Of a DNA stretch of 32,000 nt, positions 4,913-29,374 are shown in pieces. The translations under genes and the position numbers were made by a program. Source of the DNA: Trichlorobacter lovleyi SZ (GTDB lineage: Bacteria > Desulfobacterota > Desulfuromonadia > Geobacterales > Pseudopelobacteraceae); contig NC_010814.1 of NCBI RefSeq assembly GCF_000020385.1, positions 3,780,001 to 3,812,000 of the forward strand. Reading direction: 5' to 3'. The notes under the pieces were generated by a model. That model worked only from the letters and a program-made list of their open reading frames with translations, did not search any database and was not told where the DNA came from. Position 1 is the stretch's first letter. The number at the start of each line of letters is the position of its first letter.

Positions 4913-4927
4913 TGGCACTGATTTTGT
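4913..4927 (+). promoter_or_regulatory. candidate sigma-54 (-24/-12) promoter, TGGCAC-N5-TTGT
   Basis: TGGCACtgattTTGT has a perfect -24 element and correct spacing, but -12 reads GT instead of the conserved GC. It sits ~215 nt upstream of the hybrid kinase start. Confidence 0.3.
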
Positions 4928-5144
4928 AACACCGCCACAGATTGTAACCACCCCAGCCTCCGGCCAGCAGACGTCAGTCACGCTGGCAACTCCGATTCCA
5001 GTGCAGGGATGCCATCAAGGCGGCGAAACAGCCGGCGATGCAGGTGTAGACGCCGTACACCGAGAAGCCGAAGACACGCCAACACAGAAATAACCTTGCA
5101 CCGGAGCCGGCATAACACGGCAGGGAAATTCAGGATGATTCGAC

Positions 5145-16535: not shown

Positions 16536-16561
16536 CAAGAGCAGAACAAGGGGCAGCCTAT

Positions 16562-17323: not shown

Positions 17324-17760
17324 GCCGTATCCAGGCCGAGCAACTGGCCCTGGCCCATTCAGAGTCCGGTCTGCATTGCGCCGAATCTGTGGCCTCAGCC
17401 ATCACAAAACTGTTTTGCCCCGACCAGGCCGGGATCGTCTGCCGGATGGCAACCGGCTTTGGCGGCGGTCTGGCCGGTTCCCGCCAGGAGGCCTGCGGTG
17501 CATTGACCGGCGGCGTGCTTGCCATCGGTCTGCTCTGTGGCAGGACTACGCCGGAACAGGACCGGGAGACGGCCTACCGGATCAGCACCGCCTACCGGGA
17601 GCGGTTCATGGCACGCTTCGGCGCCAGCATCTGCCAGACCCTGCGGGACGGTTTCACCACTGACGATACCAGAACCGCCTGCCGTTCCCTGACTGCCGAA
17701 GCAGCAGGGATGCTGTATGATCTCTTGCAGGAGCATGGCTATGCGGTGAACCGCTTTTGA
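17320..17760 (+). CDS. C_GCAxxG_C_C family (putative redox-active) protein
   Basis: ATGA overlap with the upstream stop. Family signature Cys pattern: LHCAESV, GFGGG, ACGALTGG, plus two further Cys (SICQ, TACR). Confidence 0.8.
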   Translation: MSRIQAEQLALAHSESGLHCAESVASAITKLFCPDQAGIVCRMATGFGGGLAGSRQEACGALTGGVLAIGLLCGRTTPEQDRETAYRISTAYRERFMARFGASICQTLRDGFTTDDTRTACRSLTAEAAGMLYDLLQEHGYAVNRF

Positions 17761-17772
17761 TACGTTAGCTTG

Positions 17773-18056
17773 CTATTCCGGTTCCAGTTCAAGGGAGACG
17801 GCAAAACGGCGAGCAATCCGGCGATGCAACGGCACATGCAGTACATCAGGGAGCCGCAGACCGGCCAGCAGAGCTTGCGCCTTGCAATGGCATCGGTATT
17901 AAAGTCCGGTCATCTGCTCCAGTTGTTCAGGGTAGCGGCCCCGTCGATCGTGCCGGTCAGAAAACCTTTGCCCAGCGGGCTGTAGGCCACCGGACCGATC
18001 CCCAGCGCTTCCAGCACCGCCAGCAGTTGGCCGAAAACAAGCCGCGCCTCAGCCAT
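17773..18056 (-). pseudogene. aldo/keto reductase remnant (N-terminally truncated, frameshifted)
   Basis: The minus-strand translation gives ..LLAVLEALGIGPVAYSPLGKGFLTG.., the classic AKR motif, then a stop. A second frame continues AKR-like (..AQALLAGLRLPDVLHVPL..AVSLELEPE*). There is no sequence for the first ~190 residues. Confidence 0.5.
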
Positions 18057-18188
18057 TGCATGCCATCAAAAACGCGCTACATTATCTTCATAAAGCAGCA
18101 ACTTCAGATGGTATCCGACTGGGCAGACCGAGAACCGGCTTTCAAATAACGTGCAGCAACCTTGAAGCATGCGGCAAAGGAGAGGGAT

Positions 18189-19193
18189 ATGCGTGTTCAT
18201 ACCGGCATAATCATTGGTTGGCTGGCCCTTGCCCTGTCCAGTCAGCCGGCACAACCGCTGGCTGCGGCTGAATTTGAATTTCTGCCCGATCATCCTGGTG
18301 GCTTCAGTGCCACGGCAACCGTCAGCAATGTGCCGGTCAGGAAACTCAGCAAGGCCGATGCCGCAGCCTTTAAGAAAAAGCTGGAACAGCTGCGCAACCT
18401 GCTGGCCAAACAACCGGCGCTGCAGGCCCCCAAAGGGGTGGAGATCATCGGCTACTTCAGGCCGCTTGATGAATTCCCCACGGCCCAGAACCTGCCGGTA
18501 CCCGGCTTCGGCTACCTCAGGTTCCACTTCTATCACCGCGCCAAAAACGGCAAACCGGTCAGGATCTGTTGCACCACCGATGAGATCCATGCCTCAATCA
18601 ATGATCCTGACCAGAGCTTTGAGGTCTATGGCAGCAGGGAGTTTGCCACCAAGACCTTTTATGAACCCGACCTGGTGGGGCAGGTGGATGGTTTTCCACT
18701 CTACCGGACCGCCGGCGGGGATGAACTGCTGGTATTCAACCGTGGCACGGCACGGCCCTGGCTCCCGGTTACCCGGGAGGAGTACGTCACGGCCTGGCTG
18801 ACGTTCTGGCAGAAACAGGTACAGGAATCCGTACCGCAGGACACGATCACCCCGGAGATTGTCAGGCGCCACCAGCAGGCCCTGGCACAGATGAAGCCGG
18901 AGGAACGGACCATGCAGGCCCGTTCGCTGACCTGGGATGTCTATGAACCGACCCTGGCCCCGGTTGGCAGCGCTGAAGGCAGGCCCCTGGTACGGGTCAA
19001 CCCGGACTGGTTTGACCCCGGCCTGCCGCGCAGTGCCATACAGCTGCTGGTGCTCAGGTTCAGCACAACCGGCCTGATGGACCCGATCCAGCCCGGACCG
19101 TCGAAAACCGGCAATGTCAGTGCCTACCGGGTCTGGCAGGTGTTGCACAGCTCAAACTGGAAAGAGGTCAGCACTGTTTTGACCACCAGGTAA
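18189..19193 (+). CDS. secreted hypothetical protein (no recognisable domain)
   Basis: ATG 18189 after AAGGAGAGGG. Signal peptide MRVHTGIIIGWLALALSSQPAQPLAAA. 334 aa, GC3-rich. Ends 19 nt before the frnE-like start. Confidence 0.75.
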   Translation: MRVHTGIIIGWLALALSSQPAQPLAAAEFEFLPDHPGGFSATATVSNVPVRKLSKADAAAFKKKLEQLRNLLAKQPALQAPKGVEIIGYFRPLDEFPTAQNLPVPGFGYLRFHFYHRAKNGKPVRICCTTDEIHASINDPDQSFEVYGSREFATKTFYEPDLVGQVDGFPLYRTAGGDELLVFNRGTARPWLPVTREEYVTAWLTFWQKQVQESVPQDTITPEIVRRHQQALAQMKPEERTMQARSLTWDVYEPTLAPVGSAEGRPLVRVNPDWFDPGLPRSAIQLLVLRFSTTGLMDPIQPGPSKTGNVSAYRVWQVLHSSNWKEVSTVLTTR

Positions 19194-19212
19194 ACTGCAG
19201 GGGGAGAACACC

Positions 19213-19821
19213 ATGGATAACGGCCCCACCATAGTAGAGGTCTTTTTCGATTACATCTGACCCTGGTGCTACCTCGGTACCGTGCGTACCGAACGCCTGC
19301 AACGGGAACACGGCGTGCAACTGCGCTGGAGCGCCTTCCCGCTCCACCCCGAAACCCCGCTGGAAGGAAGGGAGCTTGCCGAGCTCTTTGCCGGACGGGA
19401 GGCCATGATCCGCGACATGCAGGCCCGGTTGCTGCAGGTTGCCGCGATCGAGGGGGTGCCGCTGATAGAACGAAGCCGCACCTACAACAGTCGGCTGGCC
19501 CAGGAGCTGGGCAAATGGGCAGAGGCGCAGGGACACGGCAATCAGTTCCACCAGGCAGTCTACCGGGCCTTTTTCGTAGACGGGGTCAACATTGCGCTGG
19601 TTGATGAATTGGTGCGGATCTCCACAGCCGTTGGCCTGCCAGCGGATCAGACCCGGACGGTGCTGGAAGAGCGGAGTTATGCCGCGTCAGTGGATGCCGA
19701 CTGGCAGCGGGCCATGGAACTGCACATTACCGCCGTGCCGACGCACCTCTGCGGAGACAGGCGCCTGAGCGGTTTCGCAGCCTATGAAGATTTTGAGCGC
19801 CTGATCAGAAAGAATCCATAA
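19213..19821 (+). CDS. DsbA/FrnE-family thiol-disulfide oxidoreductase with in-frame TGA at the first active-site Cys position (candidate selenoprotein, U-P-W-C)
   Basis: ATG 19213 follows GGGGAG. It reads MDNGPTIVEVFFDYI-TGA(19258-19260)-PWCYLGTVRTERL.. in the same frame as ORF-track 19282..19821. FrnE homologues carry F/SD..CPWCY at exactly this place. A hairpin lies 13 nt downstream of the TGA. Confidence 0.65.
19265..19297 (+). promoter_or_regulatory. SECIS-like stem-loop immediately downstream of the in-frame TGA
   Basis: Upper stem UCGGUAC (19274-19280) pairs with GUACCGA (19286-19292); the loop CGUGC contains GU. A possible lower stem pairs GGUG (19265-19268) with CGCC (19294-19297). 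Confidence 0.45.
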
Positions 19822-19874
19822 ACTCTTGTGCAGAACAATCAAGGCGGCCGGTTGGCCGCCTTTTTGATTAAAGT
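19746..19874 (+). repeat. direct repeat copy 1 (functional 3' end of frnE-like gene plus terminator)
   Basis: Hand alignment with 21112-21240 gives 18 differences in ~122 positions. Encodes ..LCGDRRLSGFAAYEDFERLIRKNP*. Confidence 0.8.
19843..19865 (+). terminator. rho-independent terminator of the frnE-like gene
   Basis: GGCGGCC-ggtt-GGCCGCC followed by TTTTT, 22 nt after the stop codon. Confidence 0.75.
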
Positions 19875-19906
19875 GCGGGAAGCGTCCGTACGCCAGCTTT
19901 CCTAAA

Positions 19907-20030
19907 GGGTATTTCAGGGTATATTTATGGGTAACGCCGCCCCGCAATGTGAATCAAGACAGGGGTATCTGGAACAACATGGCTCCGGTAAGGGGACGTG
20001 GTATTCGGTGGGGAGATAAGCTGGTGGTAT
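19907..20030 (+). repeat. cluster of six GGGTAT/GGTAT short direct repeats upstream of and within the 5' end of the HTH gene
   Basis: GGGTAT at 19907, 19917 and 19963; GGGTAA at 19929; GGTAT at 20000 and 20026. The first three are 10-12 nt apart. Confidence 0.3.
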
Positions 20031-20528
20031 AACAAAGGCGGCCGACTGGCCGCTGGGAGGCAGCCAAAATACAAACTCATAGCGCGTCAACAGCTCGACA
20101 AAACGCTGTCTGACTATGCCGTCATAAAACAGAATGCACCGCCGGTGAAAGGCTGGATACGTGCCATCCGTGAAGCACTCGGCATGTCCGGCAAACAGCT
20201 GGCAAACCGCCTGAAGGTCAGTCAGCCGCGCATCCCCAGGCTGGAACAGGATGAGCTGTCAGGCGTTGTCTCACTGAAAACCATGCGGCAAGCTGCCGAG
20301 GCAATGGATTGCGTGTTCGTCTACGCCATTGTTCCCCGCACCACGTTAGAGGAATCCGTCCGGGCGCAGGCTCGCAAGGTTGCCGAAGCCAGAGCGCAAA
20401 GGGTATCGCACTCCATGCTGCTCGAAGCGCAAAATCTGTCAGACAAGGAGCAACACGCCTCACTTGATGCTGCCGTTGATGAACTCGTGCGGGAGATGCC
20501 CAGGGAGCTCTGGGAAAGCACGCCATGA
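19998..20528 (+). CDS. XRE-type HTH protein, mobile mystery protein A-like (putative antitoxin/regulator of the Fic protein)
   Basis: ..GWIRAIREALGMSGKQLANRLKVSQPRIPRLEQDE.. is an HTH. There is an ATGA overlap with the Fic gene. The start is uncertain: GTG 19998 has an RBS-like AGGGGA only 1 nt away, and a terminator-like hairpin copy lies inside the first 20 codons. Confidence 0.7.
   Translation: MVFGGEISWWYNKGGRLAAGRQPKYKLIARQQLDKTLSDYAVIKQNAPPVKGWIRAIREALGMSGKQLANRLKVSQPRIPRLEQDELSGVVSLKTMRQAAEAMDCVFVYAIVPRTTLEESVRAQARKVAEARAQRVSHSMLLEAQNLSDKEQHASLDAAVDELVREMPRELWESTP
20037..20053 (+). repeat. third copy of the terminator hairpin (GGCGGCC-gact-GGCCGC), without T tract
   Basis: The 23-mer aacaaaggcggccgactggccgc (20031-20053) differs at 1 position from 21204-21226 and at 4 positions from 19837-19859. 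Confidence 0.6.
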
Positions 20529-21109
20529 ACTTTGAGTATCCAGATGGGGCAACACCGCTTGACGCAGATGAAGCGCAAGGTCTGCTGCTTTCCCACATCA
20601 CCAGCCGGGGAGAACTGGACCGCTGGGAGCAGGAAAACATCAGCGAGGCCGAGGCATGGGCATTTCGCCGCAAGCCGAAAGATATCCTCACCATCGACTT
20701 TCTCAAGCGAATGCACAAAAGGATGTTTGGCACTGTCTGGCGCTGGGCAGGAGAAAGACGCACCAGCGGAAAGAATATCGGCGTTGATGTATGGCAGATA
20801 GACACCGGCTTGCAGAATCTCTGTGCCGACTGCGCCATCTGGATTGCATACGGCACCTATCCACCGGATGAGATAGCAGCACGCTTTCATCACCGGCTTA
20901 CCGCAATCCACCCCTTTCCCAACGGCAACGGACGCCATGCCCGGCTGATGACCGATATTCTGCTGGTGCATCTCTTGGGGCAGCCGCGTTTTAGCTGGGG
21001 AAGCGGCAATCTGGTTAATGCCGGTGACTGCCGGCAACAGTATATCAATGCACTCCGTGCCGCCGACCGGCTCGATTACAGCCTGTTGCTGGCGTTTGTA
21101 CGCTCATGA
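20525..21109 (+). CDS. Fic-domain protein, mobile mystery protein B-like
   Basis: Fic motif HPFPNGNGRHAR (HxFxxGNGRxxR, with Asn where AMPylating Fic proteins usually have Asp/Glu). 194 aa, translationally coupled to the HTH gene. Confidence 0.88.
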   Translation: MNFEYPDGATPLDADEAQGLLLSHITSRGELDRWEQENISEAEAWAFRRKPKDILTIDFLKRMHKRMFGTVWRWAGERRTSGKNIGVDVWQIDTGLQNLCADCAIWIAYGTYPPDEIAARFHHRLTAIHPFPNGNGRHARLMTDILLVHLLGQPRFSWGSGNLVNAGDCRQQYINALRAADRLDYSLLLAFVRS

Positions 21110-21111
21110 TT

Positions 21112-21240
21112 CCCTGTGCGGAGGCAGGCGCCTGAGCGGCTTCGGGGCCTATGAAGACTTTGCGCGTCTGATCGGGAAGAATGGGTAAGCTCTTGTGCAG
21201 AACAACAAAGGCGGCCGATTGGCCGCCTTTTGAATTCAAG
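21112..21240 (+). repeat. direct repeat copy 2 (orphan frnE 3' fragment plus terminator)
   Basis: Starts 2 nt after the Fic stop codon. Keeps an open tail LCGGRRLSGFGAYEDFARLIGKNG*, the stop codon and the hairpin. Confidence 0.8.
21210..21231. terminator. rho-independent terminator (copy 2), positioned to serve convergent genes
   Basis: GGCGGCC-gatt-GGCCGCC-TTTT. The minus-strand 280-aa gene stops at 21248, 17 nt away. Confidence 0.65.
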
Positions 21241-21247
21241 AAAGCTG

Positions 21248-22090
21248 CTACCGAAATTCTAGGAGTGCTGGAGATTTTTTAGAAATATTAAACCAGACAT
21301 TCGGCGTGTTAATGATCCATTTTAGTGTAAAGCCGCAATGAATGGCAGCTGCTATGAAAGCGCCATTACTAACATAATCGTCTTCCACACCTTTCAAGGT
21401 TGCCCACCGCTTAACGCGACGCTTCAACGTATAACTGTCCATAGATCTGTTGAGTGTTTTTATTTTGTTGCATCCCTTCAGCCACTCGCAACACAGTCTG
21501 AACTGTTCTAGTCCTGTGGCCTCAAGTTCTGAACGCAGGTTAAGGTACTCTTGCCGGTTTTCCTCTGCGGTCTTTTGCCAATCTGCGGTGAATCGTATGC
21601 CGTTGTGCGTCAGATAGGGTTCTTTGGATATTGCAGCAAGGAAGTCCTCATGTGATGGGATTGATAATACGAACGCAGGAGAGAAATTATCAGTGTCGCG
21701 TATTGTCCTACTGAGGCCTTCTTGCTGTGACGATGCCCTGACTGGGTCATCCTCTTCTTTGGTACTTAAGGGTGTATAGTTTGCTGCGGCGGTAGGGAGT
21801 ACCTGCTGCTTTTTCGCTGCAGCGAGAAGTGCATCCCAACACTTGAAGCCAAGAGTCTGTGCCACCTGATTGTAGGCATGCCCCAAAGGCAGTTTGTTTC
21901 CTAAAGGCTGTTCAAGCCGGTACTTTTTTACGGCTGTCTTGATCTGGTCGACAGCGGCCAAAGAGTCAGGTTTGGGGAGAGATACAACGTCGATCTTGGA
22001 TGCAATGCTTTCCGGTTTACTGATGAACGTTTCTGATACGGACTTCAGTGCTCCGCTGTCTGCGGCAGAATAGATGGTCTTCTTTGGCAT
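21248..22090 (-). CDS. hypothetical protein, 280 aa, no recognisable domain; lies in an AT-rich islet
   Basis: ATG 22090 lies 8 nt after GGAGGA; the ORF-track TTG 22114 is less likely. Long clean ORF in a region visibly more AT-rich than the rest of the window. Confidence 0.7.
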   Translation of the reverse strand: MPKKTIYSAADSGALKSVSETFISKPESIASKIDVVSLPKPDSLAAVDQIKTAVKKYRLEQPLGNKLPLGHAYNQVAQTLGFKCWDALLAAAKKQQVLPTAAANYTPLSTKEEDDPVRASSQQEGLSRTIRDTDNFSPAFVLSIPSHEDFLAAISKEPYLTHNGIRFTADWQKTAEENRQEYLNLRSELEATGLEQFRLCCEWLKGCNKIKTLNRSMDSYTLKRRVKRWATLKGVEDDYVSNGAFIAAAIHCGFTLKWIINTPNVWFNISKKSPALLEFR

Positions 22091-22391
22091 ATCCAAGTTC
22101 CTCCATGAGCGCAATTAAGTACGCCATTAGCTGCGGAGAAACACCCTATGTAAAGTGTGGACTTTCGCGAGGTGTTTTCCAATTCGAATAAGAACCATTT
22201 TTCGTCAGTTGTCTGCGTTACTGACAGTTCTCATCCCAATCGGAAAATCTGGGGGTGAGATGAACCGCTTTACCATTCGTCATTGACGCGCAGACGGCGG
22301 GCGGGTTCAGCCTGATGCGTAAGGTTATTGTAAAAAATGTTGGGCGTCAAGGGAGTTGTCAGTCATGTAAACAATCTGCAAATTCAAAAGG

Positions 22392-22432
22392 AAAAGGGCT
22401 GTCAACTTTTGCAAAAAGCTGACAGCCCTTTT
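22392..22432 (-). terminator. 13-bp perfect hairpin flanked by A/T runs (bidirectional-type terminator), downstream of the flavodoxin remnant
   Basis: AAAAGGGCTGTCA (22392-22404) pairs with TGACAGCCCTTTT (22420-22432). It lies 30 nt after the minus-strand TAA at 22463-22465. Confidence 0.55.
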
Positions 22433-22462
22433 CCCCCTTCCTGCAACTATCGCCTCTTTTGC

Positions 22463-22672
22463 TTACGTAATCAATCCAAGCTTCCTCAGCCAATTCGACA
22501 CGTTATTGTCCGTCGTGCTAACCGTCCCGCCGATTATCGCCAGACACGGACAAGACCTTTGCCGTCGGACAAAGCCTTTTGATATCCCGCTCGCTGCGTC
22601 CCAAACCGCTCCCCTCATGGGTGCAGTAGGGCACGATGGTCTTGCCCGAGAAATCGCAGGACTCCAAAACGC
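22463..22672 (-). pseudogene. flavodoxin-family gene remnant (C-terminal ~70 residues only, one frameshift)
   Basis: Minus-strand frames read ..VLESCDFSGKTIVPYCTHEGSGLGRSERDIKRLCPTAKVL.. and then, after a frame change, ..LAIIGGTVSTTDNNVSNWLRKLGLIT*. This resembles the short flavodoxin-like proteins (FLESYDFSGKTIIPFCTHGGSG..DIKKLCP..GLAI.G....V..WL). The N-terminal half is absent. Confidence 0.5.
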
Positions 22673-22690
22673 AAGGGGTTGTCCTTTGTT

Positions 22691-23878
22691 TCAAAAAGCC
22701 ATCCGCATGATCTGCAGGGCCTCATCCTTGCCAAGCAGGGCCAGGCAGCCCAGCTTGCCGTTTTCGACCGCCTTGGCTGCCATACCATCCAGGTCTTCCT
22801 GCTTGACCCCGGCCTCACGCAGGTTTAGCGGCATTTTGATGGTGGCATAGAACGCCTCCAACGCCTTGATACCTGCCTCTGCTGCCTTGGCATCGTCCTC
22901 TTCACGGATCTCCATGACATTGCGGGCAAACCTAGCAAAGACCGGCAGATGCTGCGGAGCCGCCTGCATGGTGTAGCGCATCCAGGCCGGCGTCAGCAGC
23001 GCCAAGGTAACGCCGTGGGTCATGTCGTACTGGCTGGAAAGTTCATGCCCCATGCCGTGTAGCGGGAAGGCGAAGCCCGGCTTGCCGAGCAGAAACTGGA
23101 ACCCGGCCAGGGCCATGGAACTGGCCCACATGATGTTGGCACGGGCATCATAGTCCTGCGGATTGGCCAGCAGCTTGGGGGCCTCCTCCAGCACCACCTT
23201 CATAACCCCTTCGTTCATCCGGTCCTGCACCTTGGCAGCAACATCGGGGGTGAAGTACTGCTCCATCAGGTGGCAGAGGATATCCGCCACACCGGCCATG
23301 GTGTGATGTTCCGGCACCGTATAGGTGTACTCCGGGTCCAGGATGGAGAAGCGGGGATTGACCAGCGGGTGCAGCAGCACCTTTTTCTTGTGATCCTCAC
23401 CCACCGTGATGACCGCACCCATATCCAGCTCGGAGCCGGTACCGGCCATGGTCAGAATGGTTGCCAACGGAGCGGCTGCAATGATTCTGGATGAGAGGCC
23501 GGATGCATCGACAAACAGGTCATTGACCGGACCAGCATACATCACCCCGGCGGCAATGGCCTTGCAGGCATCCAGGGTGGAACCGCCCCCCACGGCCAGA
23601 ATGAAATCACAGTTATTGTCACGATAGAGCTTGATCCCTTGCTCAACACTTTCAATCCGTGGATTGGGCTGGATGCCGCTCAGTTCCACATAGGCAAGGC
23701 CTGCTGTGTTGAGCTGTTCAAGAATGGTGTCATAGATGCCGTTCTGCTTGATGCTGCCGCCGCCATAGGTCAGCAGCACCTTGGAGCCACCCTCTGCTTT
23801 GATGGTCTGGCCGAGAACCTTGATCTGCCCCTTGCCGAAGTAGGCGGTGGTGGGAATGCTGAAAATGAAGTTGCGCAT
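22691..23878 (-). CDS. iron-containing (group III) alcohol dehydrogenase, BdhA/YqhD-like
   Basis: ATG 23878 after AGGAGA. MRNFIFSIPTTAYFGKG.., LLTYGGGSIK, ILAVGGGSTLD, GTGSE and His-rich metal-site blocks (HLMEQY, HGMGHELS) are collinear with E. coli YqhD and clostridial butanol dehydrogenases. Confidence 0.92.
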   Translation of the reverse strand: MRNFIFSIPTTAYFGKGQIKVLGQTIKAEGGSKVLLTYGGGSIKQNGIYDTILEQLNTAGLAYVELSGIQPNPRIESVEQGIKLYRDNNCDFILAVGGGSTLDACKAIAAGVMYAGPVNDLFVDASGLSSRIIAAAPLATILTMAGTGSELDMGAVITVGEDHKKKVLLHPLVNPRFSILDPEYTYTVPEHHTMAGVADILCHLMEQYFTPDVAAKVQDRMNEGVMKVVLEEAPKLLANPQDYDARANIMWASSMALAGFQFLLGKPGFAFPLHGMGHELSSQYDMTHGVTLALLTPAWMRYTMQAAPQHLPVFARFARNVMEIREEDDAKAAEAGIKALEAFYATIKMPLNLREAGVKQEDLDGMAAKAVENGKLGCLALLGKDEALQIMRMAF

Positions 23879-24034
23879 GTCTGTTCTCCTGTACGGATGT
23901 GATGATCGCATCCTACACCCCGAAGAAAAATGGCGATAGACCGATCCTGTCGATTTATTGCCTGATTCTCTTGATCATGAAAATGGCGTTGTAACGCAGG
24001 AAGCGGTTGGGTAGTATGCAATCAGGAGGTGCTT

Positions 24035-24979
24035 ATGGAAAATCCTGCTGTTTACGACGATTCTGATGTTGTTCGTCTGGCTGGAGCCATTGAAGAACTG
24101 AACAGGAGTATTGCCCGATGGACCGAACAGGGCGAAATGCATACAACTGTCATCCCGGGGCTGGCGCTGTTCCGGCGGACCGAGCCGACCGAACCGGTCA
24201 GCGGTATCTATGAACCGGGCGTCTGCCTGATTGCCCAGGGGGCCAAACGGGTCATGCTGGGTGATGACAGGTACCGCTATGACGCACAGCATTATCTGAT
24301 CACCTCGGTACATCTGCCGACCATTGTGCAGGTTATCGAGGCAAGCCCTGAAAAACCGTATCTTGGGCTGAGGCTGACATTCGATCTGCGCGAGGTTTCG
24401 CAGTTGATGGTGGACAGCAACCTGCCGCAGCCACGGCCCCAGCAGTCGAGCCGCGGTATGGCAACCGGCCAGGTGACCCTGCAGCTGGTTAACGCCTTTA
24501 TCCGTCTGATTGACCTGCTGGCAGATGAAAAGGATATCCCGATCCTGGCGCCGGTCATCCAGCGCGAAATCATCTACCGGTTACTGGTGGGAGACCAGGG
24601 GGAGCGGCTACGCCAGATCGCCACGGCAGGCAGCCAGAGCCAGCAGATTGCCAAGGCGATCGGCTGGTTGCAGAGCAACTATTCCCAGTCGATCAGCATG
24701 GATCAGCTTGCTGCTCAGACCAACATGAGTACGTCGACATTCCATCATCACTTCCGATCGCTGACCGCCCTGAGCCCGCTGCAGTATCAGAAACAGCTGC
24801 GGCTGCAGGAGGCCAGACGCCTGATGCTGGCAGAACGGATGGATGCCGCCAATGCCGCTTTTCAGGTGGGCTATGAAAGCCCTTCCCAGTTCAACCGTGA
24901 GTACAGCCGCATGTTTGGCGCACCGCCGCTGCGGGATATCACCAGCTTGCGCCAGCTGGCTGCCGACGGGAGGGGCTAG
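24035..24979 (+). CDS. AraC-family transcriptional regulator (AraC_N-type sensing domain + HTH), divergent from the dehydrogenase
   Basis: ATG 24035 lies 5 nt after AGGAGG. The C-terminal AraC HTH reads SISMDQLAAQTNMSTSTFHHHFRSLTALSPLQYQKQLRLQEARRLM..GYESPSQFNREYSRMFGAPP. Confidence 0.9.
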   Translation: MENPAVYDDSDVVRLAGAIEELNRSIARWTEQGEMHTTVIPGLALFRRTEPTEPVSGIYEPGVCLIAQGAKRVMLGDDRYRYDAQHYLITSVHLPTIVQVIEASPEKPYLGLRLTFDLREVSQLMVDSNLPQPRPQQSSRGMATGQVTLQLVNAFIRLIDLLADEKDIPILAPVIQREIIYRLLVGDQGERLRQIATAGSQSQQIAKAIGWLQSNYSQSISMDQLAAQTNMSTSTFHHHFRSLTALSPLQYQKQLRLQEARRLMLAERMDAANAAFQVGYESPSQFNREYSRMFGAPPLRDITSLRQLAADGRG

Positions 24980-25051
24980 CAGCCCCCCGGCAGTACCGGC
25001 ACCGCGCAACACTGCAAGACAACGCGCTGTATACGCGCCACACCGCCATCA

Positions 25052-25067
25052 TGGCCCCCTCCTTGCT
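25052..25067 (+). promoter_or_regulatory. candidate sigma-54 promoter TGGCCC-N5-TTGCT
   Basis: GG-N10-GC spacing is correct and -12 TTGCT matches the consensus; -24 has one mismatch (TGGCCC vs TGGCAC). It lies 88 nt upstream of ATG 25155. Confidence 0.35.
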
Positions 25068-25154: not shown

Positions 25155-27728
25155 ATGCCGGTATGTTATGAGGATCTTGCCGCAGTCCGGATCTTTGCCG
25201 GGCTGTCACCCCACCAGCTGGAGCGTATCAGCCAGCGGCTGCAGGAATGTGTCTTTTTGTCCGGCATGGTCATTTTGTCCAGAAATGCCCCACCGGAAAA
25301 GCTGTACCTGATCCTGGAGGGACGGGTCAGGGTCGAACTGCAGGACGGCAACGGCCAGATCTTTAATGTAACCGAGCTGGGCAGGGGTGAGATCATCGGT
25401 GAGCGGGCGATCCTGACCGGAGAAGCACGCACTGCCGATGTGCGGGCCATCAGCGAGGTACGGGCCGTCAGCCTGGGCCGCAGCGATTTTGAAGAGCTGC
25501 TCCATGAAACCCCGCAGATCTACGCCAATCTCTGCCGCATCCTGGCCTATCAGCTGGGCAGCTGGGCCCAACGCCATCAACGGGAGGAGCGGGAGCACCG
25601 CGATGCGATCACCAATGTCATCGGCTGGCAACTGCTGCCCGAGTTCGGCGCCTTTCCCGGCAACTCCTCCAACGTGCGAGCCCTCAACGCGCGGCTTGAA
25701 CAGCTGGGGCGCCAACGCAACCATGTGCTGATTACCGGTGAGCCGGGCACCTGGAAGGATCTGGCAGCACGCCTGATCCACTTTCATGCCGATGCGTCCT
25801 GTCCGGTGCTGTTTCTCGATTGCGCCACACCGCCGCCGGTGATCGGCAGCGAGCAGCGCGGCGCCATTGCGGTTAAGGATGCCCTGCTGCTTGAAATTGC
25901 CCAGGAGGCGGCCCTGTTCGGCCATGTCCCGGACGGAGCGGTCTATGCCCGGCGGATACGGCGCGGCATGCTGGAGCTTGCCGCCGGGGGAGATCTGATC
26001 CTGCGTAACGTGGACTGCCTGACTCCGGCGGTGCAGGAGCTGCTGGCCCAGTTCATGGCAAGCGGCCAGTTCAAACGGCGCGGTGAGCAGCGCCTGCGCA
26101 GCGCCGAGGTCAGGATCATCGCCACCAGCAGCGAGCCGCTGGCTGAACAGGCTGCGGCCGGCAGTTTCCATGGAGGGCTGTACCGCCGGCTGGCAACGGA
26201 GCGCTTGGAGATGGCGCCGCTGCGTGAGCGCAAGAAGGATATCCCGCTGATCGCCCGCAGCCTGCTGTCCAGCCTCAACGCCAAGCACCACAAGCAGGTG
26301 CGGCGGATCTCCCAGGATGCCCTGAACCGCCTGGTGGACCACGATTGGCCGCTTAACGGCAGCGAGCTGTACCAGGTCATGAGCCGCGCCGTGGTGGTCT
26401 GCAACGCCGACGAGATCCAGGCGGAACATATCTTTCTGCAGGGGCAGTCCTTCGGCGGCCGCTTCAACCTGCTCTCGCTGCCGTCGGTGGAACGGCTGGC
26501 CCGTCGCCCTGATTTCCCCCGTCTGCTGCGCTGGACGACCGTGCCGCTGTTTCTGCTGGTGACGGGCTACACCCTGGCCGGTCCCCGCACCGGCAATGCC
26601 GCCAATCTGGCGGTCTGGACCCTCTGGTGGCCGGCCCTGCTTGCCACCGCCTTTCTGGTGGCGCGGGGCTGGTGCAGCTACTGTCCGCTGGAGGCGATCG
26701 GCGAGTTTGTCGGCGTCAAGACGCGGGTCACCCATGAACCGATGCAGTGGCTGAAAAAGTGGGGTGCGGCGATCAGCCTGGCCGGGATGATCTTGATACT
26801 GCTGGTAGAACAGGCCACCGGCATGTTTTCCCATGCCCTGGCCACCGGCATCCTGCTGGCCGGGCTGCTGGCTGCCACGGCCATGGCCGACCTGATCATC
26901 GGCCGGCGGGGCTGGTGCAAGTTTCTCTGTCCGCTGGGCCGGATCGTCAGCCTGGTGTCACGGATTTCCCTGCTTGAGATGCACAGCAACCGCACGGTCT
27001 GCGTCAGCCGCTGCCGGGTTGACGACTGCGTCAAGGAACGGGGCTGCCCGATGGGGTTGCACCCCACCGGCATCGATAACTCCGACCATTGCGTACTCTG
27101 CCTCAACTGTGTACGCAGCTGCCCGCACCACTCCATGCAGCTCGACCTGCGCAATCCGGCCTGGGGCCTGCTCAACCGCTCCCGCCACGGTTTTTATGAA
27201 GCCCTGTTCAGCGTGGCGCTCTGTGGTACGATTGCCGCGGCCAAAGGGACTCCGCTCCTGATGGGACGGGCCAAGGAGGTCTTTCCTTCCACCGTCTGGA
27301 GCGGGCCTGAATCTGCCCTGGCCGTGGGGATGGTGCTGCTGTATTGCCTGGCGGCGATGGCCTGCTCAGGGACGGCACCCGCGCTGCGCCGGCGGCAGGC
27401 CTTTACGGTCTATGGCCTGGCCTACCTGCCGCTGGCGATCACCGGCCTGTTCATGATCTACTTCCGCGCCCTGGTTGAGGGGGGAGCGCAGCTGATACCG
27501 CTGCTCTTGACCGCCTTCGGCCTGATTCAGCTGACCGATCCGGCCCGGCTCACCCCGGAACTGGGCACCCTGCGTCTGTTGATCTATCCCGGCATCCTCG
27601 CCGGGATGACCTTCTCGCTGGTTGCCCTGGCCAGCCTGCAACGGCAGCACAATCTGGGCGGACCCGGCCTGCTGGGCCACCGCCTGCTGCTGCTGCTGAC
27701 CACTGGCGTCTTCCTCGTCATTCTTTAA
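25155..27728 (+). CDS. fusion protein: cNMP-binding domain + degenerate sigma-54-activator-type AAA+ domain + NapH-like multi-TM 4Fe-4S polyferredoxin domain
   Basis: 857-aa ORF. N terminus is Crp-type cNMP-binding (LYLILEGRVRV, GEIIGERAILTGEARTADVRA). The middle is collinear with bEBP AAA+ (VLITGEPGTWKD, ALFGH, VRIIATS, LYRRL, PLRERKKDIPLIA, WPLNGSEL). The C terminus has about 8 or more TM segments with RGWCSYCPLE, RRGWCKFLCPLGRI, CVSRCRVDDCVKERGCP and CVLCLNCVRSCP. Confidence 0.85.
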   Translation: MPVCYEDLAAVRIFAGLSPHQLERISQRLQECVFLSGMVILSRNAPPEKLYLILEGRVRVELQDGNGQIFNVTELGRGEIIGERAILTGEARTADVRAISEVRAVSLGRSDFEELLHETPQIYANLCRILAYQLGSWAQRHQREEREHRDAITNVIGWQLLPEFGAFPGNSSNVRALNARLEQLGRQRNHVLITGEPGTWKDLAARLIHFHADASCPVLFLDCATPPPVIGSEQRGAIAVKDALLLEIAQEAALFGHVPDGAVYARRIRRGMLELAAGGDLILRNVDCLTPAVQELLAQFMASGQFKRRGEQRLRSAEVRIIATSSEPLAEQAAAGSFHGGLYRRLATERLEMAPLRERKKDIPLIARSLLSSLNAKHHKQVRRISQDALNRLVDHDWPLNGSELYQVMSRAVVVCNADEIQAEHIFLQGQSFGGRFNLLSLPSVERLARRPDFPRLLRWTTVPLFLLVTGYTLAGPRTGNAANLAVWTLWWPALLATAFLVARGWCSYCPLEAIGEFVGVKTRVTHEPMQWLKKWGAAISLAGMILILLVEQATGMFSHALATGILLAGLLAATAMADLIIGRRGWCKFLCPLGRIVSLVSRISLLEMHSNRTVCVSRCRVDDCVKERGCPMGLHPTGIDNSDHCVLCLNCVRSCPHHSMQLDLRNPAWGLLNRSRHGFYEALFSVALCGTIAAAKGTPLLMGRAKEVFPSTVWSGPESALAVGMVLLYCLAAMACSGTAPALRRRQAFTVYGLAYLPLAITGLFMIYFRALVEGGAQLIPLLLTAFGLIQLTDPARLTPELGTLRLLIYPGILAGMTFSLVALASLQRQHNLGGPGLLGHRLLLLLTTGVFLVIL

Positions 27729-27968: not shown

Positions 27969-27984
27969 TGGCACTGTTGCTGCT
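27969..27984 (+). promoter_or_regulatory. sigma-54 promoter TGGCAC-N5-CTGCT upstream of dcuB
   Basis: TGGCACtgttgCTGCT has a perfect -24 element, GG-N10-GC spacing and one mismatch in -12 (CTGC vs TTGC). An AT-rich tract (27920-27965, TATCAATCAATAT) lies between it and the palindromes. ATG is 62 nt downstream. Confidence 0.6.
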
Positions 27985-28045
27985 CCTGTCAGGGCAAAAG
28001 CTTCTTTCGCAACCCATGACAAACGTCATCTACAGGAGGTGTACC

Positions 28046-29374
28046 ATGTTAATGTTCTGGATCCAATTCGTGCTGGTACTTGGGGCAGTTTTGATCGGTA
28101 TCCGCCGGGGCGGTGTCTCCCTCGGCCTGATCGGTGGTCTGGGGGTCTCACTGCTGGTGCTGGGCTTCCGCAGTGCGCCGTCCGAGCCGCCCATTGCGGT
28201 GATGCTGATCATCCTGGCGGTGGTGACCGCCTCGGCCACCCTGCAGGTGGCAGGCGGGCTTGACTACCTGGTGCAGCTGACCGAGCGGATGCTGCGCGCC
28301 CATCCCAAGTACGTCACCATCCTTGCCCCGCTCTCAACCTTTTTACTGACCGTCTGCTGCGGTACCGGCCATGCCGTCTATGCCCTGCTGCCGGTTATCT
28401 CCGACGTGGCGCTCAAGACCGGTATCCGTCCGGAACGTCCCATGGCCATCTCCAGTGTGGCCTCACAGATGGGTATTACCGCCAGTCCGGTTGCAGCCGC
28501 CGTGACCTTCTTTCTCGGCTTTGCCGCCAAGGCCGGCTATCCGGTCACCCTGGTGGATATCATCATGGTCACCATGCCGGCCGGTGTGCTGGGTGTGCTG
28601 GCAGCTGCCGCCTGGAGCTTCAACCGCGGTAAAGACCTGGATAAAGACCAGGAATTTCAGGCCCGCCTGGAAGATCCCGACTTCCGTAACACCCTGAACG
28701 CCAACGTCACGACGCTGGACCAGAAGATCTCCACCACGGCCAAACTGTCAGTGCTGCTGTTCTTTGCCGGGGTCGGTTCCATCATCCTCCTGGCCAGTTT
28801 CCCGGAACTGCTCCCCCTTGACCACAAAGGCAAGGCAGTGGCCATGACCACGGTGGTGCAGTTTGTCATGCTGGCCTTTGGCGCCTTCATCATGTTCGCC
28901 GGTAACGTCAAGGCCAAGGATATCGCCCACTCCAGCGTCTTCACCGCCGGTATGATCGCCGTGGTCTCCATCTTCGGTATCGCCTGGATGAGCGACACCT
29001 TTATCTCCGCCAACAAGGGTTATCTGATCGAGACCATCGGTACCATGGTCAAGACAGCCCCCTGGACCTTTGCCATCGCCACCTTCTGTATCTCGGCCTT
29101 TGTCAAGAGTCAGGCCGCCACCCTGGCCATTACCCTGCCGCTGGGTCTGGCCCTGGGCCTGCCGGTGCCCCTGCTGCTGGGCCTGATGCCGGCCAGCTAC
29201 GCCTACTTCTTCTTTGCCTTCTACCCCAGCGACCTGGCTGCCATCAATATGGATCGTACCGGCACCACCAGAATCGGCAAGTACCTGTTAAACCACAGCT
29301 TCATGATCCCCGGCCTGATCGGTGTCAGCACCTCAACCGTCATAGCCTACATCATCTCACGCTTCATGTTCTAG
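28046..29374 (+). CDS. dcuB: anaerobic C4-dicarboxylate transporter, DcuB type
   Basis: ATG 28046 after AGGAGG. Collinear with E. coli DcuB along its whole length: GGLGV, CGTGH.VY.LLPVI.DVALK.GIRPERPMA, RGKDLDKDQEFQ, YPSDLAAI..DRTGTTRIGKYLLNHSFMIPGLIGVS. Confidence 0.93.
   Translation: MLMFWIQFVLVLGAVLIGIRRGGVSLGLIGGLGVSLLVLGFRSAPSEPPIAVMLIILAVVTASATLQVAGGLDYLVQLTERMLRAHPKYVTILAPLSTFLLTVCCGTGHAVYALLPVISDVALKTGIRPERPMAISSVASQMGITASPVAAAVTFFLGFAAKAGYPVTLVDIIMVTMPAGVLGVLAAAAWSFNRGKDLDKDQEFQARLEDPDFRNTLNANVTTLDQKISTTAKLSVLLFFAGVGSIILLASFPELLPLDHKGKAVAMTTVVQFVMLAFGAFIMFAGNVKAKDIAHSSVFTAGMIAVVSIFGIAWMSDTFISANKGYLIETIGTMVKTAPWTFAIATFCISAFVKSQAATLAITLPLGLALGLPVPLLLGLMPASYAYFFFAFYPSDLAAINMDRTGTTRIGKYLLNHSFMIPGLIGVSTSTVIAYIISRFMF

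What the first reader, a model, noticed from the sequence alone, without database searches (positions are those of the whole stretch)
25155..27728. 857-aa fusion of cNMP-binding, catalytically degenerate sigma-54-activator AAA+ and NapH-like membrane polyferredoxin, with no DNA-binding domain
The central ~260 residues are collinear with bacterial enhancer-binding-protein AAA+ domains, but each functional signature is altered. Walker A reads GEPGTWKD (Trp replaces the second-last Gly of GxxGxGK). The GAFTGA sigma-54 contact loop reads GAVYAR. Walker B GTLFLDEIG reads GDLILRNVD, so the acidic pair is lost. No Fis-type HTH follows the AAA+ domain. The chain instead continues into a multi-TM domain with two RxWCxxxCP motifs and two ferredoxin-type Cys clusters (CVSRCRVDDCVKERGCP; CVLCLNCVRSCP), as in NapH/MauN/NosR-type quinol-linked Fe-S membrane proteins. 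A Crp-type cNMP-binding domain sits at the N terminus. I know of no characterised protein with this architecture. It sits between a candidate sigma-54 promoter (25052) and the sigma-54-type dcuB promoter (27969). It could therefore be a membrane- or redox-tethered modulator of sigma-54-dependent respiration genes rather than an activator, for example by forming mixed rings with or sequestering a true bEBP.
Basis: partly seen in the sequence, partly recalled or inferred. Interest (0 to 1): 0.8.

Follow-up and report, generated by a model that had tools for sequence, protein, structure and literature searches.

The report
cNMP-sensing pseudo-AAA+ membrane polyferredoxin
This is a real, widely conserved but unstudied membrane protein in which a cyclic-nucleotide sensor and a disabled copy of a sigma-54 activator motor are fused to an iron-sulfur membrane module; it is almost certainly not the transcription activator that databases call it.

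Summary
The 857-aa ORF at 25155-27728 (+) is real. It is 100% identical to Trichlorobacter lovleyi WP_012471558 / UniProt B3E2Y0. Its domains are cNMP_binding, a bEBP-type AAA+ domain with lid, and a roughly 10-TM NapH-superfamily polyferredoxin. There is no HTH. Walker A GExGTWKD and Walker B ILRN[IV]D are near-invariant in 116 orthologues, and dN/dS is 0.2. So this is neither decay nor an assembly fusion.

The family is large, about 327 clusters at 50% identity. It spans Desulfobacterota, anammox Planctomycetota, Chloroflexota, Armatimonadota and cyanobacteria. Family-wide, the Walker B acidic pair, the arginine fingers and GAFTGA are lost, while all 12 cysteines are invariant. N-terminal inputs vary (cNMP, GAF, REC, FHA). 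Some members sit beside adenylate/guanylate cyclases. Cyanobacterial members exist although cyanobacteria lack sigma-54.

The best reading is a second-messenger-gated membrane Fe-S redox protein that uses a hydrolysis-dead bEBP module as its signal-transducing scaffold. No paper or solved structure covers this family.

The parts
25029..25034 (+). GTATAC palindrome, one of two conserved islands in the otherwise diverged upstream region; possible regulator site
   Evidence: Alignment of the upstream regions of the window, L093 (82% orthologue) and L005 (73% orthologue).
25052..25067 (+). Candidate sigma-54 (-24/-12) promoter TGGCCC-N5-TTGCT, 103 nt upstream of the ATG
   Evidence: Conserved in position and sequence in L093 (TGGCCT-N5-TTGCT) and L005 (TGGCCC-N5-TTGCT). 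Absent upstream of more distant orthologues.
25155..27728 (+). Complete CDS, 857 aa, identical to T. lovleyi ACD97240.1 / WP_012471558.1 / UniProt B3E2Y0
25254..25505 (+). Cyclic-nucleotide-binding (CAP/PKA-type) domain, residues 34-117. The phosphate-binding cassette G82-E83...R92-T93-A94 is intact (nt 25398-25436).
   Evidence: Pfam PF00027, 68 bits against a cutoff of 27.5. PDB matches to Crp, PKA-R and MloK1 CNB domains. G82, E83, R92 and A94 are invariant in 52 homologues down to 37% identity.
25575..25649 (+). Linker, residues 141-165. Highly conserved (81% identity, dN/dS 0.13) but modelled with low confidence; presumed signal-transmitting element between the CNB and AAA+ domains.
25659..26201 (+). 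bEBP-type AAA+ alpha/beta subdomain (Sigma54_activat), residues 169-349, catalytically degenerate
   Evidence: Pfam PF00158, E 3.9e-22. PDB phmmer 1.8e-27 to NtrC4. Foldseek TM 0.84-0.92, rmsd 2-3 A, to NtrC1, LuxO, FlrC and FleQ.
25737..25760 (+). Degenerate Walker A, G195-E-P-G-T-W200-K201-D202. Trp replaces the Gly that precedes the Lys.
   Evidence: W is invariant in 116 orthologues. Across 127 diverse representatives this position is G 87, E 27, W 4.
25842..25889 (+). Family-typical insertion (about residues 230-245) between beta2 and the helix preceding L1
   Evidence: Modelled with low confidence at residues 231-241.
25935..25952 (+). L1-loop position, G261-A-V-Y-A-R266, in place of GAFTGA
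   Evidence: Variable among orthologues (GAVYAR, STLSAR, STIYAR...). Never GAFTGA in 126 diverse family members.
25992..26015 (+). Degenerate Walker B, D280-L-I-L-R284-N285-V-D287. Arg-Asn replaces Asp-Glu.
   Evidence: RN is invariant in orthologues. Family-wide the pair is [E/R/K/H][N/H].
26223..26435 (+). AAA+ lid, residues 357-427. Among the most constrained parts of the protein (dN/dS 0.026), although the sensor II Arg is Ser403.
   Evidence: Pfam PF25601.
26517..26954 (+). Four predicted TM helices (about residues 460-478, 484-504, 533-551, 563-583). RGWC507SYC510P follows TM2 and RRGWC588KFLC592P follows TM4. Glu552 at the end of TM3 is near-invariant.
   Evidence: Hydropathy, AF2 helices, Pfam Fer4_5 x2. 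The Cys residues and E552 are near-invariant in 127 representatives.
27000..27122 (+). Two ferredoxin-type Cys clusters (C616/620/625/631-P and C646/649/652/656-P), predicted to face the cytoplasm
   Evidence: NCBIfam NapH/MauN partial match to residues 105-224 of the C-terminal fragment. All eight Cys are near-invariant. dN/dS 0.024.
27192..27725 (+). C-terminal bundle of about 5-6 TM helices (residues ~680-857) that NapH lacks; conserved G-x-AYLPLA motif around residues 754-761
   Evidence: Also present in the stand-alone Deinococcus homologue.

Best explanation
The gene encodes a membrane-anchored, signal-gated iron-sulfur redox protein. It is not a transcription activator.

Shown here:
- A Crp/PKA-type cNMP-binding domain with an intact phosphate-binding cassette.
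- A bEBP-derived AAA+ module that keeps its fold. It has lost the Walker A glycine, the Walker B Asp-Glu, one arginine finger, the sensor II arginine and the GAFTGA sigma-54 contact.
- A roughly 10-TM NapH-superfamily polyferredoxin whose 12 cysteines are invariant.
- All parts are under purifying selection in a large, phylogenetically wide family.

Inferred:
- cAMP or cGMP binding at the N terminus changes the packing or oligomeric state of the hydrolysis-dead AAA+ module. Regulatory domains do this in true bEBPs.
- That change is passed through the highly constrained lid to the cytoplasm-facing Fe-S domain.
- This switches electron transfer between the membrane quinone pool and a cytoplasmic acceptor or donor on or off. 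The acceptor could be a metal ion or a thiol/sulfur compound, by analogy with CcoG.
- In the Geobacter-type clade the Trp in the P-loop probably makes the module nucleotide-independent. In more distant members with an intact P-loop and a dead Walker B, ATP binding without hydrolysis may act as a co-signal.
- In Trichlorobacter the gene is probably transcribed from its own sigma-54 promoter, next to a sigma-54-type dcuB-flavocytochrome c operon. That concerns when the gene is made, not how the protein works.
For: Architecture and homology.

Motif loss against PDB bEBPs and the window's own bEBPs.

The degenerate state is conserved, so it is not decay:
- W200 and R284-N285 are near-invariant in 116 orthologues of 52-100% identity.
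- dN/dS is 0.20 overall, 0.18 for the AAA+ domain, 0.026 for the lid and 0.024 for the Fe-S region.

Family breadth and features:
- 327 clusters at 50% identity with E<1e-30.
- Walker B, the arginine fingers, sensor II and GAFTGA are lost family-wide, while 12 Cys and E552 are near-invariant.

Input-output logic:
- N-terminal modules vary (cNMP; cNMP+GAF; HisKA+REC; FHA+cNMP) on a constant AAA+-polyferredoxin core.
- The membrane module also exists as a stand-alone protein.

cNMP as a genuine input:
- The PBC Glu and Arg-Thr are intact and conserved.
- A CHASE2-adenylate/guanylate cyclase gene lies directly upstream in Scalindua (3-nt gap) and Brocadiaceae.
- A cyclase, phosphodiesterase-like genes and a cNMP-kinase lie nearby in a Syntrophobacteraceae genome.

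Independence from sigma-54:
- Full-length members occur on cyanobacterial plasmids.
Against: - No experiment exists on any family member.
- The substrate or partner of the Fe-S module is unknown, and gene neighbourhoods are mostly unconserved.
- The direction of signal flow is inferred only from domain order and input variability. The alternatives are that the Fe-S module is the output or that it is a second sensor.
- Loss of nucleotide binding by the Gly-to-Trp change is inferred from general P-loop knowledge and was not tested.
- The PBC arginine is kept in only 48 of 127 distant representatives, so cNMP may not be the ligand everywhere.
- The full-length model has pTM 0.57, so inter-domain contacts are not established.
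- The membrane domain scores far below the curated cutoffs of NapH, NosR and CcoG and has no structural relative in the PDB. Functional transfer from those proteins is therefore weak.
Confidence: 0.5

Rival explanations
1. The protein is a membrane- or redox-tethered negative modulator of the sigma-54 system. Its dead AAA+ module joins or sequesters a true bEBP (a poisoned mixed ring) or sigma-54. Fumarate-respiration genes such as dcuB-fcc would then respond to quinone-pool redox state and cNMP.
For: - In T. lovleyi and its closest relative (L093, 82% identity) the gene lies between an SBP-histidine kinase/NtrC-type bEBP pair and a dcuB-flavocytochrome c operon that carries a conserved sigma-54-type promoter.
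- The gene has a conserved sigma-54-type promoter of its own.
- The AAA+ fold and lid are well preserved, so a bEBP-like ring interface is conceivable.
- A subunit lacking its arginine finger and Walker B would be an effective poison.
Against: - The synteny is confined to the genus. Eight other Desulfuromonadales/Desulfobacterota loci show unrelated neighbours.
- The family occurs in cyanobacteria, which lack sigma-54 and bEBPs.
- The L1 loop that would touch sigma-54 is variable and never GAFTGA.
- The invariant, strongly constrained parts are the Fe-S cysteines and the lid, not the sigma-54-facing surface.
- No interaction data exist.
Confidence: 0.15
2. The protein is a dual sensor without catalytic turnover. 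The Fe-S membrane module reads the redox state of the quinone pool, or O2/NO, and the CNB domain reads cNMP. The pseudo-AAA+ module is the output: it recruits or releases an unidentified cytoplasmic partner unrelated to sigma-54.
For: - Fe-S clusters are common redox/O2/NO sensors (general knowledge).
- NosR and NirI, in the same superfamily, were first described as regulators (the NCBIfam name is 'transcriptional regulator NosR').
- No periplasmic domain and no conserved redox partner gene were found.
- The conserved but low-confidence linker and the highly constrained lid could be partner-binding surfaces.
Against: - The variable N-terminal input domains suggest the N terminus is the sensing end and the constant C-terminal module is the effector.
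- The membrane module exists alone in Deinococcus, which implies it works autonomously.
- No conserved partner gene is seen.
Confidence: 0.2
3. The protein is a Pycsar/CBASS-like anti-phage effector: a cNMP-binding domain coupled to a membrane-damaging TM domain, triggered by a cyclase.
For: - PADLOC gives domain-level matches of the CNB domain to Pycsar effector and cyclase models.
- Cyclase genes and an Apyc1-like metallo-beta-lactamase lie near some members.
Against: - The PADLOC matches cover only the generic CNB or bEBP domains.
- There is no cyclase next to the gene in the window or in most loci.
- The 12 invariant Fe-S/CxxxCP cysteines and the vertical, taxonomy-tracking conservation in Geobacterales fit a housekeeping redox protein, not a mobile defence gene.
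Confidence: 0.03
4. The gene is a decaying bEBP, or an assembly or frameshift artefact that fuses two genes.
For: None beyond the degenerate motifs themselves.
Against: - An identical protein occurs in 28 database members, including a 3.9-Mb complete genome.
- More than 116 full-length orthologues of the same length share the same degenerate motifs.
- dN/dS is 0.2.
- The AF2 model is confident across all domains.
Confidence: 0.01

Closest known systems
Bacterial enhancer-binding proteins (NtrC1, NtrC4, ZraR, PspF, FleQ, LuxO)
   Same: The central AAA+ domain and lid are homologous (phmmer 1e-27 to 1e-15; Foldseek TM 0.84-0.92). The overall order of N-terminal sensor, AAA+ module and C-terminal output is the same.
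   Different: The Walker A Gly is Trp. The Walker B DE is RN. GAFTGA is GAVYAR. The first arginine finger is His and the sensor II Arg is Ser. There is a 19-residue insertion. There is no HTH. The C-terminal output is an integral-membrane polyferredoxin.
GAFTGA-less bEBP homologues that work without sigma-54 (TyrR, DhaR, HupR, VpsR)
   Same: They are bEBP-derived AAA+ domains that no longer contact sigma-54 (PMC3162934).
   Different: Those proteins keep a DNA-binding domain and act as sigma-70-type transcription factors, and most still bind ATP. This protein has no DNA-binding domain and is membrane-embedded.
NapH / MauN quinol-dehydrogenase-type membrane ferredoxins
   Same: They share Fer4_5-type Cys-x(2-3)-Cys-Pro motifs after TM helices, followed by two ferredoxin-type Cys clusters that are predicted to face the cytoplasm. 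NapH/MauN is the best NCBIfam match for the C-terminal part (TIGR02163, E 1.6e-11).
   Different: The score is 44 bits against a cutoff of 213, and only TM4 to the Fe-S region aligns. This protein has about 6 extra C-terminal TM helices, no nap or mau genes nearby, a first Cys cluster with the unusual spacing C-x3-C-x4-C-x5-CP, and a large cytoplasmic regulatory N terminus.
CcoG/FixG (cupric reductase) and YccM
   Same: They belong to the same Fer4_5 superfamily: membrane proteins with two [4Fe-4S] clusters and Cys motifs at the cytoplasmic face. They show that such modules can be stand-alone reductases (PMC7558416).
   Different: The NCBIfam score is 15.8 bits against a cutoff of 316.7. There is no FixG_C Ig-like domain and no ccoNOQP/ccoHIS context.
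NosR / NirI / RdhC-PceC
   Same: They share a C-terminal polytopic domain with CxxxCP motifs and two Fe-S clusters, and they have historically been linked to regulation.
   Different: This protein has no periplasmic FMN-binding domain. The NCBIfam NosR score is 24.7 bits against a cutoff of 1000. There are no nos, nir or rdh genes adjacent.
cNMP-gated membrane proteins (e.g. the MloK1 channel; Pycsar CNB-TM effectors)
   Same: A CNB domain is fused to a membrane effector, so a second messenger controls a membrane activity directly. The CNB domain matches MloK1 at E 8e-10.
   Different: Here a pseudo-AAA+ module lies between sensor and membrane part, and the membrane part is an Fe-S redox module, not a channel or pore.

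Membership tests
Sigma-54 activator (bEBP) | AAA+ domain homologous to Pfam Sigma54_activat with a bEBP-type lid | tested here: met
   PF00158 79 bits (cutoff 20.2) and PF25601 59.8 bits. Foldseek TM 0.84-0.92 to NtrC1, LuxO and FlrC.
Sigma-54 activator (bEBP) | Walker A GxxxxGK[ST] competent for ATP binding | tested here: not met
   The motif is GEPGTWKD; the Gly before the Lys is Trp. This is invariant in 116 orthologues. The effect on binding is inferred.
Sigma-54 activator (bEBP) | Walker B hhhhDE for Mg2+ coordination and hydrolysis | tested here: not met
   LILRN replaces LFLDE. The pair is lost across the whole family.
Sigma-54 activator (bEBP) | GAFTGA L1 loop that contacts sigma-54 | tested here: not met
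   The loop is GAVYAR. It is variable among orthologues and never GAFTGA in the family.
Sigma-54 activator (bEBP) | Arginine fingers and sensor II arginine | tested here: not met
   The first finger is His339. The second Arg is kept here but is Leu or Ala in most of the family. The sensor II Arg is Ser403.
Sigma-54 activator (bEBP) | C-terminal Fis-type HTH enhancer-binding domain (usual, not universal) | tested here: not met
   There is no HTH_8 hit. Residues 440-857 are a membrane domain. The window's true bEBPs do have HTH_8.
Sigma-54 activator (bEBP) | ATP-dependent activation of sigma-54 holoenzyme | not testable with these tools
   This needs in vitro transcription and ATPase assays.
NapH/MauN family | Score above the curated NCBIfam cutoff (TIGR02163 / NF007013) | tested here: not met
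   44.2 bits against 213, and 38.6 bits against 234.
NapH/MauN family | Two Cys-x3-Cys-Pro motifs after TM helices plus two 4Fe-4S Cys motifs | tested here: met
   C507xxC510P, C588xxxC592P, C616/620/625/631P and C646/649/652/656P. All are near-invariant. The first motif has x2 and the first cluster has atypical spacing.
NapH/MauN family | Four-TM protein encoded with napG/napC/napA or mau genes | tested here: not met
   The protein has about 10 TM helices. No nap or mau genes were found in the window ORFs scanned.
CcoG/FixG cupric reductase | TIGR02745 above cutoff, FixG_C Ig-like domain, ccoGHIS context | tested here: not met
   15.8 bits against 316.7. No FixG_C hit. No cco genes nearby.
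NosR/NirI | Periplasmic FMN-binding domain and NF046105 above cutoff | tested here: not met
   24.7 bits against 1000. No FMN_bind hit. Periplasmic loops are short.
Cyclic-nucleotide-binding (CAP_ED) domain proteins | PF00027 above the gathering score, with the phosphate-binding-cassette Gly-Glu ... Arg-[ST]-Ala | tested here: met
   68.1 bits against 27.5. G82-E83 and R92-T93-A94 are present. G82, E83, R92 and A94 are invariant in 52 homologues.
Cyclic-nucleotide-binding (CAP_ED) domain proteins | Actual binding of cAMP or cGMP | not testable with these tools
   There is only contextual support: cyclase genes lie adjacent in three lineages.
Pycsar effector | CNB-effector gene paired with a PycC cyclase in a defence locus | tested here: not met
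   PADLOC gives only domain-level hits. There is no cyclase in the window near the gene.

The most novel reading that the evidence does not exclude
This family would be a previously unrecognised class of second-messenger-gated membrane redox proteins. The bEBP AAA+ ring has been exapted, with loss of hydrolysis and, in Geobacter-type members, probably of nucleotide binding. It would serve as a ligand-controlled assembly switch that turns a quinone-linked Fe-S reductase on or off. cAMP/cGMP, or phosphorylation, GAF ligands and FHA-bound phosphothreonine in other members, would then control membrane electron flow post-translationally in anaerobes, anammox bacteria and cyanobacteria.
Probability: 0.35. 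Interest if true: 0.8.

Novelty: new variant of a known kind. Interest (0 to 1): 0.62.

Why it matters
- Genome annotation pipelines label hundreds of these proteins "sigma 54-interacting transcriptional regulator". That label is almost certainly wrong, and it inflates bEBP counts in Geobacter, anammox and other genomes.
- If the proposed mechanism holds, this would be an example of a transcription-activator motor domain re-used as a non-catalytic signalling scaffold on a membrane enzyme.
- It would also be a rare case of direct cyclic-nucleotide control of respiratory or metal-related electron transfer in bacteria.
- In Geobacter and Trichlorobacter, which matter for metal reduction and dechlorination, it offers a testable link between cNMP signalling, the sigma-54 regulon and fumarate respiration.
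- The membrane module has no solved structural relative, so it is also a structural-biology target for the NapH/NosR/CcoG superfamily.

Tried and rejected
1. **Assembly or frameshift fusion, or a decaying gene.** Rejected because identical and orthologous full-length proteins exist in complete genomes, the motifs are conserved and dN/dS is 0.2.

2. **A conserved dcuB/flavocytochrome neighbourhood.** Found only in the closest relative, L093. Absent in L001, L003-L006, L089-L091 and L094.

3. **A conserved small partner gene.** The 127-aa and 410-aa neighbours are not homologous across loci and are absent from the window.

4. **A cysteine-synthase link.**
   - cysK is adjacent in L003, L007 and L008.
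   - The two cyanobacterial proteins are 73% identical and plasmid-borne, so they probably represent one transferred cassette.
   - With only two independent cases, I kept this as a lead.

5. **The genome-contig scan.**
   - It keyed on the generic CNB phosphate-binding cassette, so it mostly returned unrelated CNB proteins. Only L009-L014 and L017 are family members.
   - The apparent "residues 4-432" hits in Acidobacteria (L018-L027) are artefacts. In the locus I inspected (L018) they come from two adjacent genes, an MscS-like channel with a CNB domain followed by a normal NtrC-type bEBP.

6. **First attempt at search for related loci.** It failed with the 50-sequence alignment because no stretch was conserved enough.

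7. **Search with the C-terminal domain alone.** It returned mainly fragments of the same family and few stand-alone relatives.

8. **Foldseek of the membrane-domain model against the PDB.** It gave no hit with E<0.001, so there was no structural lead.

9. **The Deinococcus upstream 308-aa protein.** It is not a hidden AAA+ domain.

10. **Defence-system reading.** PADLOC matched only generic domains.

11. **Literature.** Five searches by architecture or organism terms and one by accession numbers found nothing on this family.

Full report
**1. Observation**

The window contains an 857-codon ORF at 25155-27728 on the + strand. Pfam finds cNMP_binding (residues 34-117), Sigma54_activat (169-349), AAA_lid_14 (357-427), two Fer4_5 stretches and a weak Fer4 hit. 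It finds no HTH_8. NCBIfam matches many bEBP equivalogs, but only over residues ~110-433 and far below every curated cutoff.

- Walker A is GEPGTWKD, against GESGTGKE.
- The L1 loop is GAVYAR, against GAFTSA/GAYTGA.
- Walker B is LILRNVD, against LFLDEIG.

The first arginine finger is His. The sensor II Arg is Ser. A 19-residue insertion follows beta2.

The C-terminal 420 residues contain about ten hydrophobic helices. They carry C507xxC510P, C588xxxC592P and two ferredoxin-type Cys groups.

**2. Real gene, not decay or artefact**

The protein is 100% identical to T. lovleyi ACD97240.1 / WP_012471558.1 / UniProt B3E2Y0. Its cluster has 28 members, including a 3.9-Mb genome.

At least 116 full-length orthologues (52-82% identity) exist in Geomonas, Citrifermentans, Oryzomonas, Geoanaerobacter, Desulfuromonas and others. 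They share the same length and domain set. In them Walker A GExGTWKD and Walker B ILRN[IV]D are near-invariant, whereas the L1 and arginine-finger segments vary.

Against the 82% orthologue (L093), dN/dS is 0.20 overall, 0.18 for the AAA+ domain, 0.026 for the lid and 0.024 for the Fe-S region.

AF2 models are confident for each domain. The C-terminal model has pLDDT 84 and pTM 0.85. The full-length model has pLDDT 82 and pTM 0.57. The AAA+ part superposes on NtrC1, LuxO, FlrC and FleQ with target-normalised TM 0.84-0.92.

**3. The wider family**

An exhaustive HMMER scan finds 327 clusters at 50% identity with E<1e-30. Most are 800-940 aa and match end to end.

Named members come from several phyla:
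- Syntrophobacteraceae, Dehalococcoidia, Ca. Scalindua and Brocadiaceae, Armatimonadota, Desulfobacterales.
- Two cyanobacterial plasmids.

Across 127 diverse representatives:
- The 12 cysteines and Glu552 are near-invariant.
- The Walker B pair is [E/R/K/H][N/H].
- Both arginine fingers and the sensor II Arg are mostly lost.
- GAFTGA never occurs; relics such as GAFSFA do.
- The Walker A Gly is kept in 87, replaced by Glu in 27 and by Trp in 4. The Lys is kept in 101.

So loss of hydrolysis looks ancestral to the family, and loss of the P-loop glycine is a later event. The Trp version is specific to the Desulfuromonadales clade.

Longer members replace or extend the N terminus with cNMP+GAF, HisKA+REC or FHA+cNMP, while the AAA+-polyferredoxin core stays constant. 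A stand-alone version of the membrane module exists in Deinococcus ficus.

**4. The membrane module**

On its own it matches NapH/MauN best. TIGR02163 gives 44 bits against a cutoff of 213. NapH gives 38.6 against 234, NosR 24.7 against 1000 and CcoG 15.8 against 316.7. Only the TM4-CxxxCP-Fe-S segment aligns. Foldseek finds no solved structure with E<0.001.

It is therefore a distant relative within the Fer4_5 (NapH/NosR/CcoG) superfamily and not a member of any characterised family.

The AAA+ domain must be cytoplasmic, and loop charges follow the positive-inside pattern. From this I infer that both Cys-Pro motifs and both clusters face the cytoplasm. I recall the same arrangement being reported for NapH. 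Periplasmic loops are short, so there is no periplasmic redox domain.

**5. Context**

Neighbourhoods of Desulfuromonadales orthologues are unrelated to each other, and the same holds for a ~40% clade. No conserved small partner exists.

The dcuB-flavocytochrome c neighbourhood is kept only in the closest relative, L093. There the gene directly follows an SBP-histidine kinase and NtrC-type bEBP pair. In the window an ~8.6-kb block separates them.

Three recurring themes appear elsewhere:
- A CHASE2-adenylate/guanylate cyclase gene lies immediately upstream in two anammox genomes, and there is a cNMP-rich neighbourhood in a Syntrophobacteraceae genome. This supports cNMP as a true input.
- cysK is adjacent in the two cyanobacterial plasmids and in one Desulfuromonadales MAG. 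The two plasmid copies are 73% identical and probably represent one event.
- The Deinococcus stand-alone gene follows a His-rich protein and lies near DUF305 and DUF3105 genes.

[quoted passage not shown] The family's core function therefore cannot require sigma-54.

**6. Promoters**

The site at 25052 (TGGCCC-N5-TTGCT) and a GTATAC palindrome at 25029-25034 are the only conserved islands in an alignment of the upstream regions of the window, L093 and L005. The dcuB site at 27969 is conserved in L093.

The number of such matches in the window is at chance level. The evidence therefore lies in position and conservation, not in count. The gene is thus probably sigma-54-transcribed in Trichlorobacter. 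More distant orthologues lack the site.

**7. Interpretation**

Shown:
- A conserved tripartite protein with an intact CNB domain.
- A structurally intact but catalytically stripped bEBP AAA+ module.
- An invariant Fe-S membrane module.

Inferred: signal flows from the N terminus to the C terminus. The basis is the bEBP domain logic of input, AAA+ and output, the variable inputs on a constant core, and the autonomous existence of the membrane module. cNMP binding would alter the packing or oligomerisation of the pseudo-AAA+ module. Through the strongly constrained lid, that change would gate electron transfer between the quinone pool and a cytoplasmic acceptor. CcoG, a cupric reductase with two [4Fe-4S] clusters, is a precedent for enzymatic activity in this superfamily (PMC7558416). 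The substrate remains unknown.

Rivals:
- The Fe-S module is a redox sensor and the AAA+ module is a protein-binding output.
- A Pycsar-like effector, which is unlikely.
- Decay or artefact, which is refuted.

**8. Novelty**

Six literature searches, five by architecture or organism terms and one by accession numbers, found nothing on this family. Databases name it "sigma 54-interacting transcriptional regulator", "cyclic nucleotide-binding protein" or even "histidine kinase".

All the domains are known kinds. What is new is the combination, the conserved pseudo-ATPase state and the membrane output. I rate it a new variant of known kinds, of solid but not extreme interest, pending any experiment.

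Noticed in passing
window 25029-25067: Upstream of the gene, a GTATAC palindrome and a sigma-54-type -24/-12 element are the only conserved islands in an alignment with two orthologous loci (L093, L005). This suggests the gene is itself sigma-54-dependent in Trichlorobacter. The palindrome lies only ~18 nt upstream of the -24 element, which is unusually close for an enhancer.
   Followed up: partly
window 27969-28050: The mechanical dcuB ORF starts at TTG 27968, on top of the sigma-54-like site TGGCAC-N5-CTGCT. The real start is more likely ATG 28047, preceded by AGGAGG. The promoter-like site is conserved upstream of dcuB in L093 (8780).
   Followed up: partly
window 16500-25000 compared with L093 5832-6001: In the 82% orthologous locus the NtrC-type bEBP is directly followed by the family gene. 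In the window about 8.6 kb lies between them: two proteins without Pfam hits, a 288-aa ORF, a Fe-alcohol dehydrogenase and an AraC_N-type regulator. This block includes the window's lowest-GC stretch (21-23 kb, GC 0.50-0.53), so it may be an insertion.
   Followed up: partly
window 4913-4928: A third sigma-54-like site (TGGCAC-N5-TTGTA) lies in the intergenic region upstream of the 1287-aa hybrid histidine kinase (5145-9008), directly after the NtrC-type regulator at 3450-4772.
   Followed up: no
L007 5740-9377; L008 5413-9104; L003 5588-10568: Cyanobacterial plasmid homologues (Pseudanabaena and Aulosira, 73% identical to each other) are each followed within 6-18 nt by cysK. A Desulfuromonadales MAG orthologue sits between sulfite reductase plus cysteine synthase and Rrf2 plus a sulfate ABC transporter. 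This may point to a sulfur/cysteine link for part of the family.
   Followed up: partly
L011 49-4893; L014 2294-7573; L091 3404-13266: In two anammox genomes a CHASE2-adenylate/guanylate cyclase gene lies immediately upstream of the family member (3-nt gap in Scalindua). A Syntrophobacteraceae locus carries a cyclase, an Apyc1-like metallo-beta-lactamase, a metallophosphoesterase and a CNB-Ser/Thr kinase around it.
   Followed up: partly
L018 5086-7844 (L019-L027 gave the same kind of hit but were not inspected): In the one Acidobacteria locus inspected (L018), a mechanosensitive-channel-like protein with a C-terminal CNB domain is followed, with a 4-nt overlap, by a canonical REC-sigma54-HTH bEBP. 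This gene pair mimicked a fused hit in the tblastn screen.
   Followed up: no
L092 6042-8323: The stand-alone membrane polyferredoxin of Deinococcus ficus overlaps by 4 nt with an upstream His/Asp/Pro-rich 308-aa protein that has no Pfam hit. It lies near DUF305 and DUF3105 genes. This hints at a metal-related role like that of CcoG.
   Followed up: partly
window 25206-26834 (- strand): A 542-aa antisense ORF overlaps the gene. It lies in 62-66% GC DNA and was not examined further. It is most likely a GC-rich artefact and not a gene.
   Followed up: no
residues 141-165 and 357-427 of the protein (window 25575-25649 and 26223-26435): The CNB-AAA+ linker is 81% conserved yet modelled with pLDDT below 50. 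The AAA+ lid is as constrained as the Fe-S region (dN/dS 0.026 against 0.024), even though its sensor II arginine is lost. Both may be inter-domain or inter-subunit contact surfaces.
   Followed up: partly
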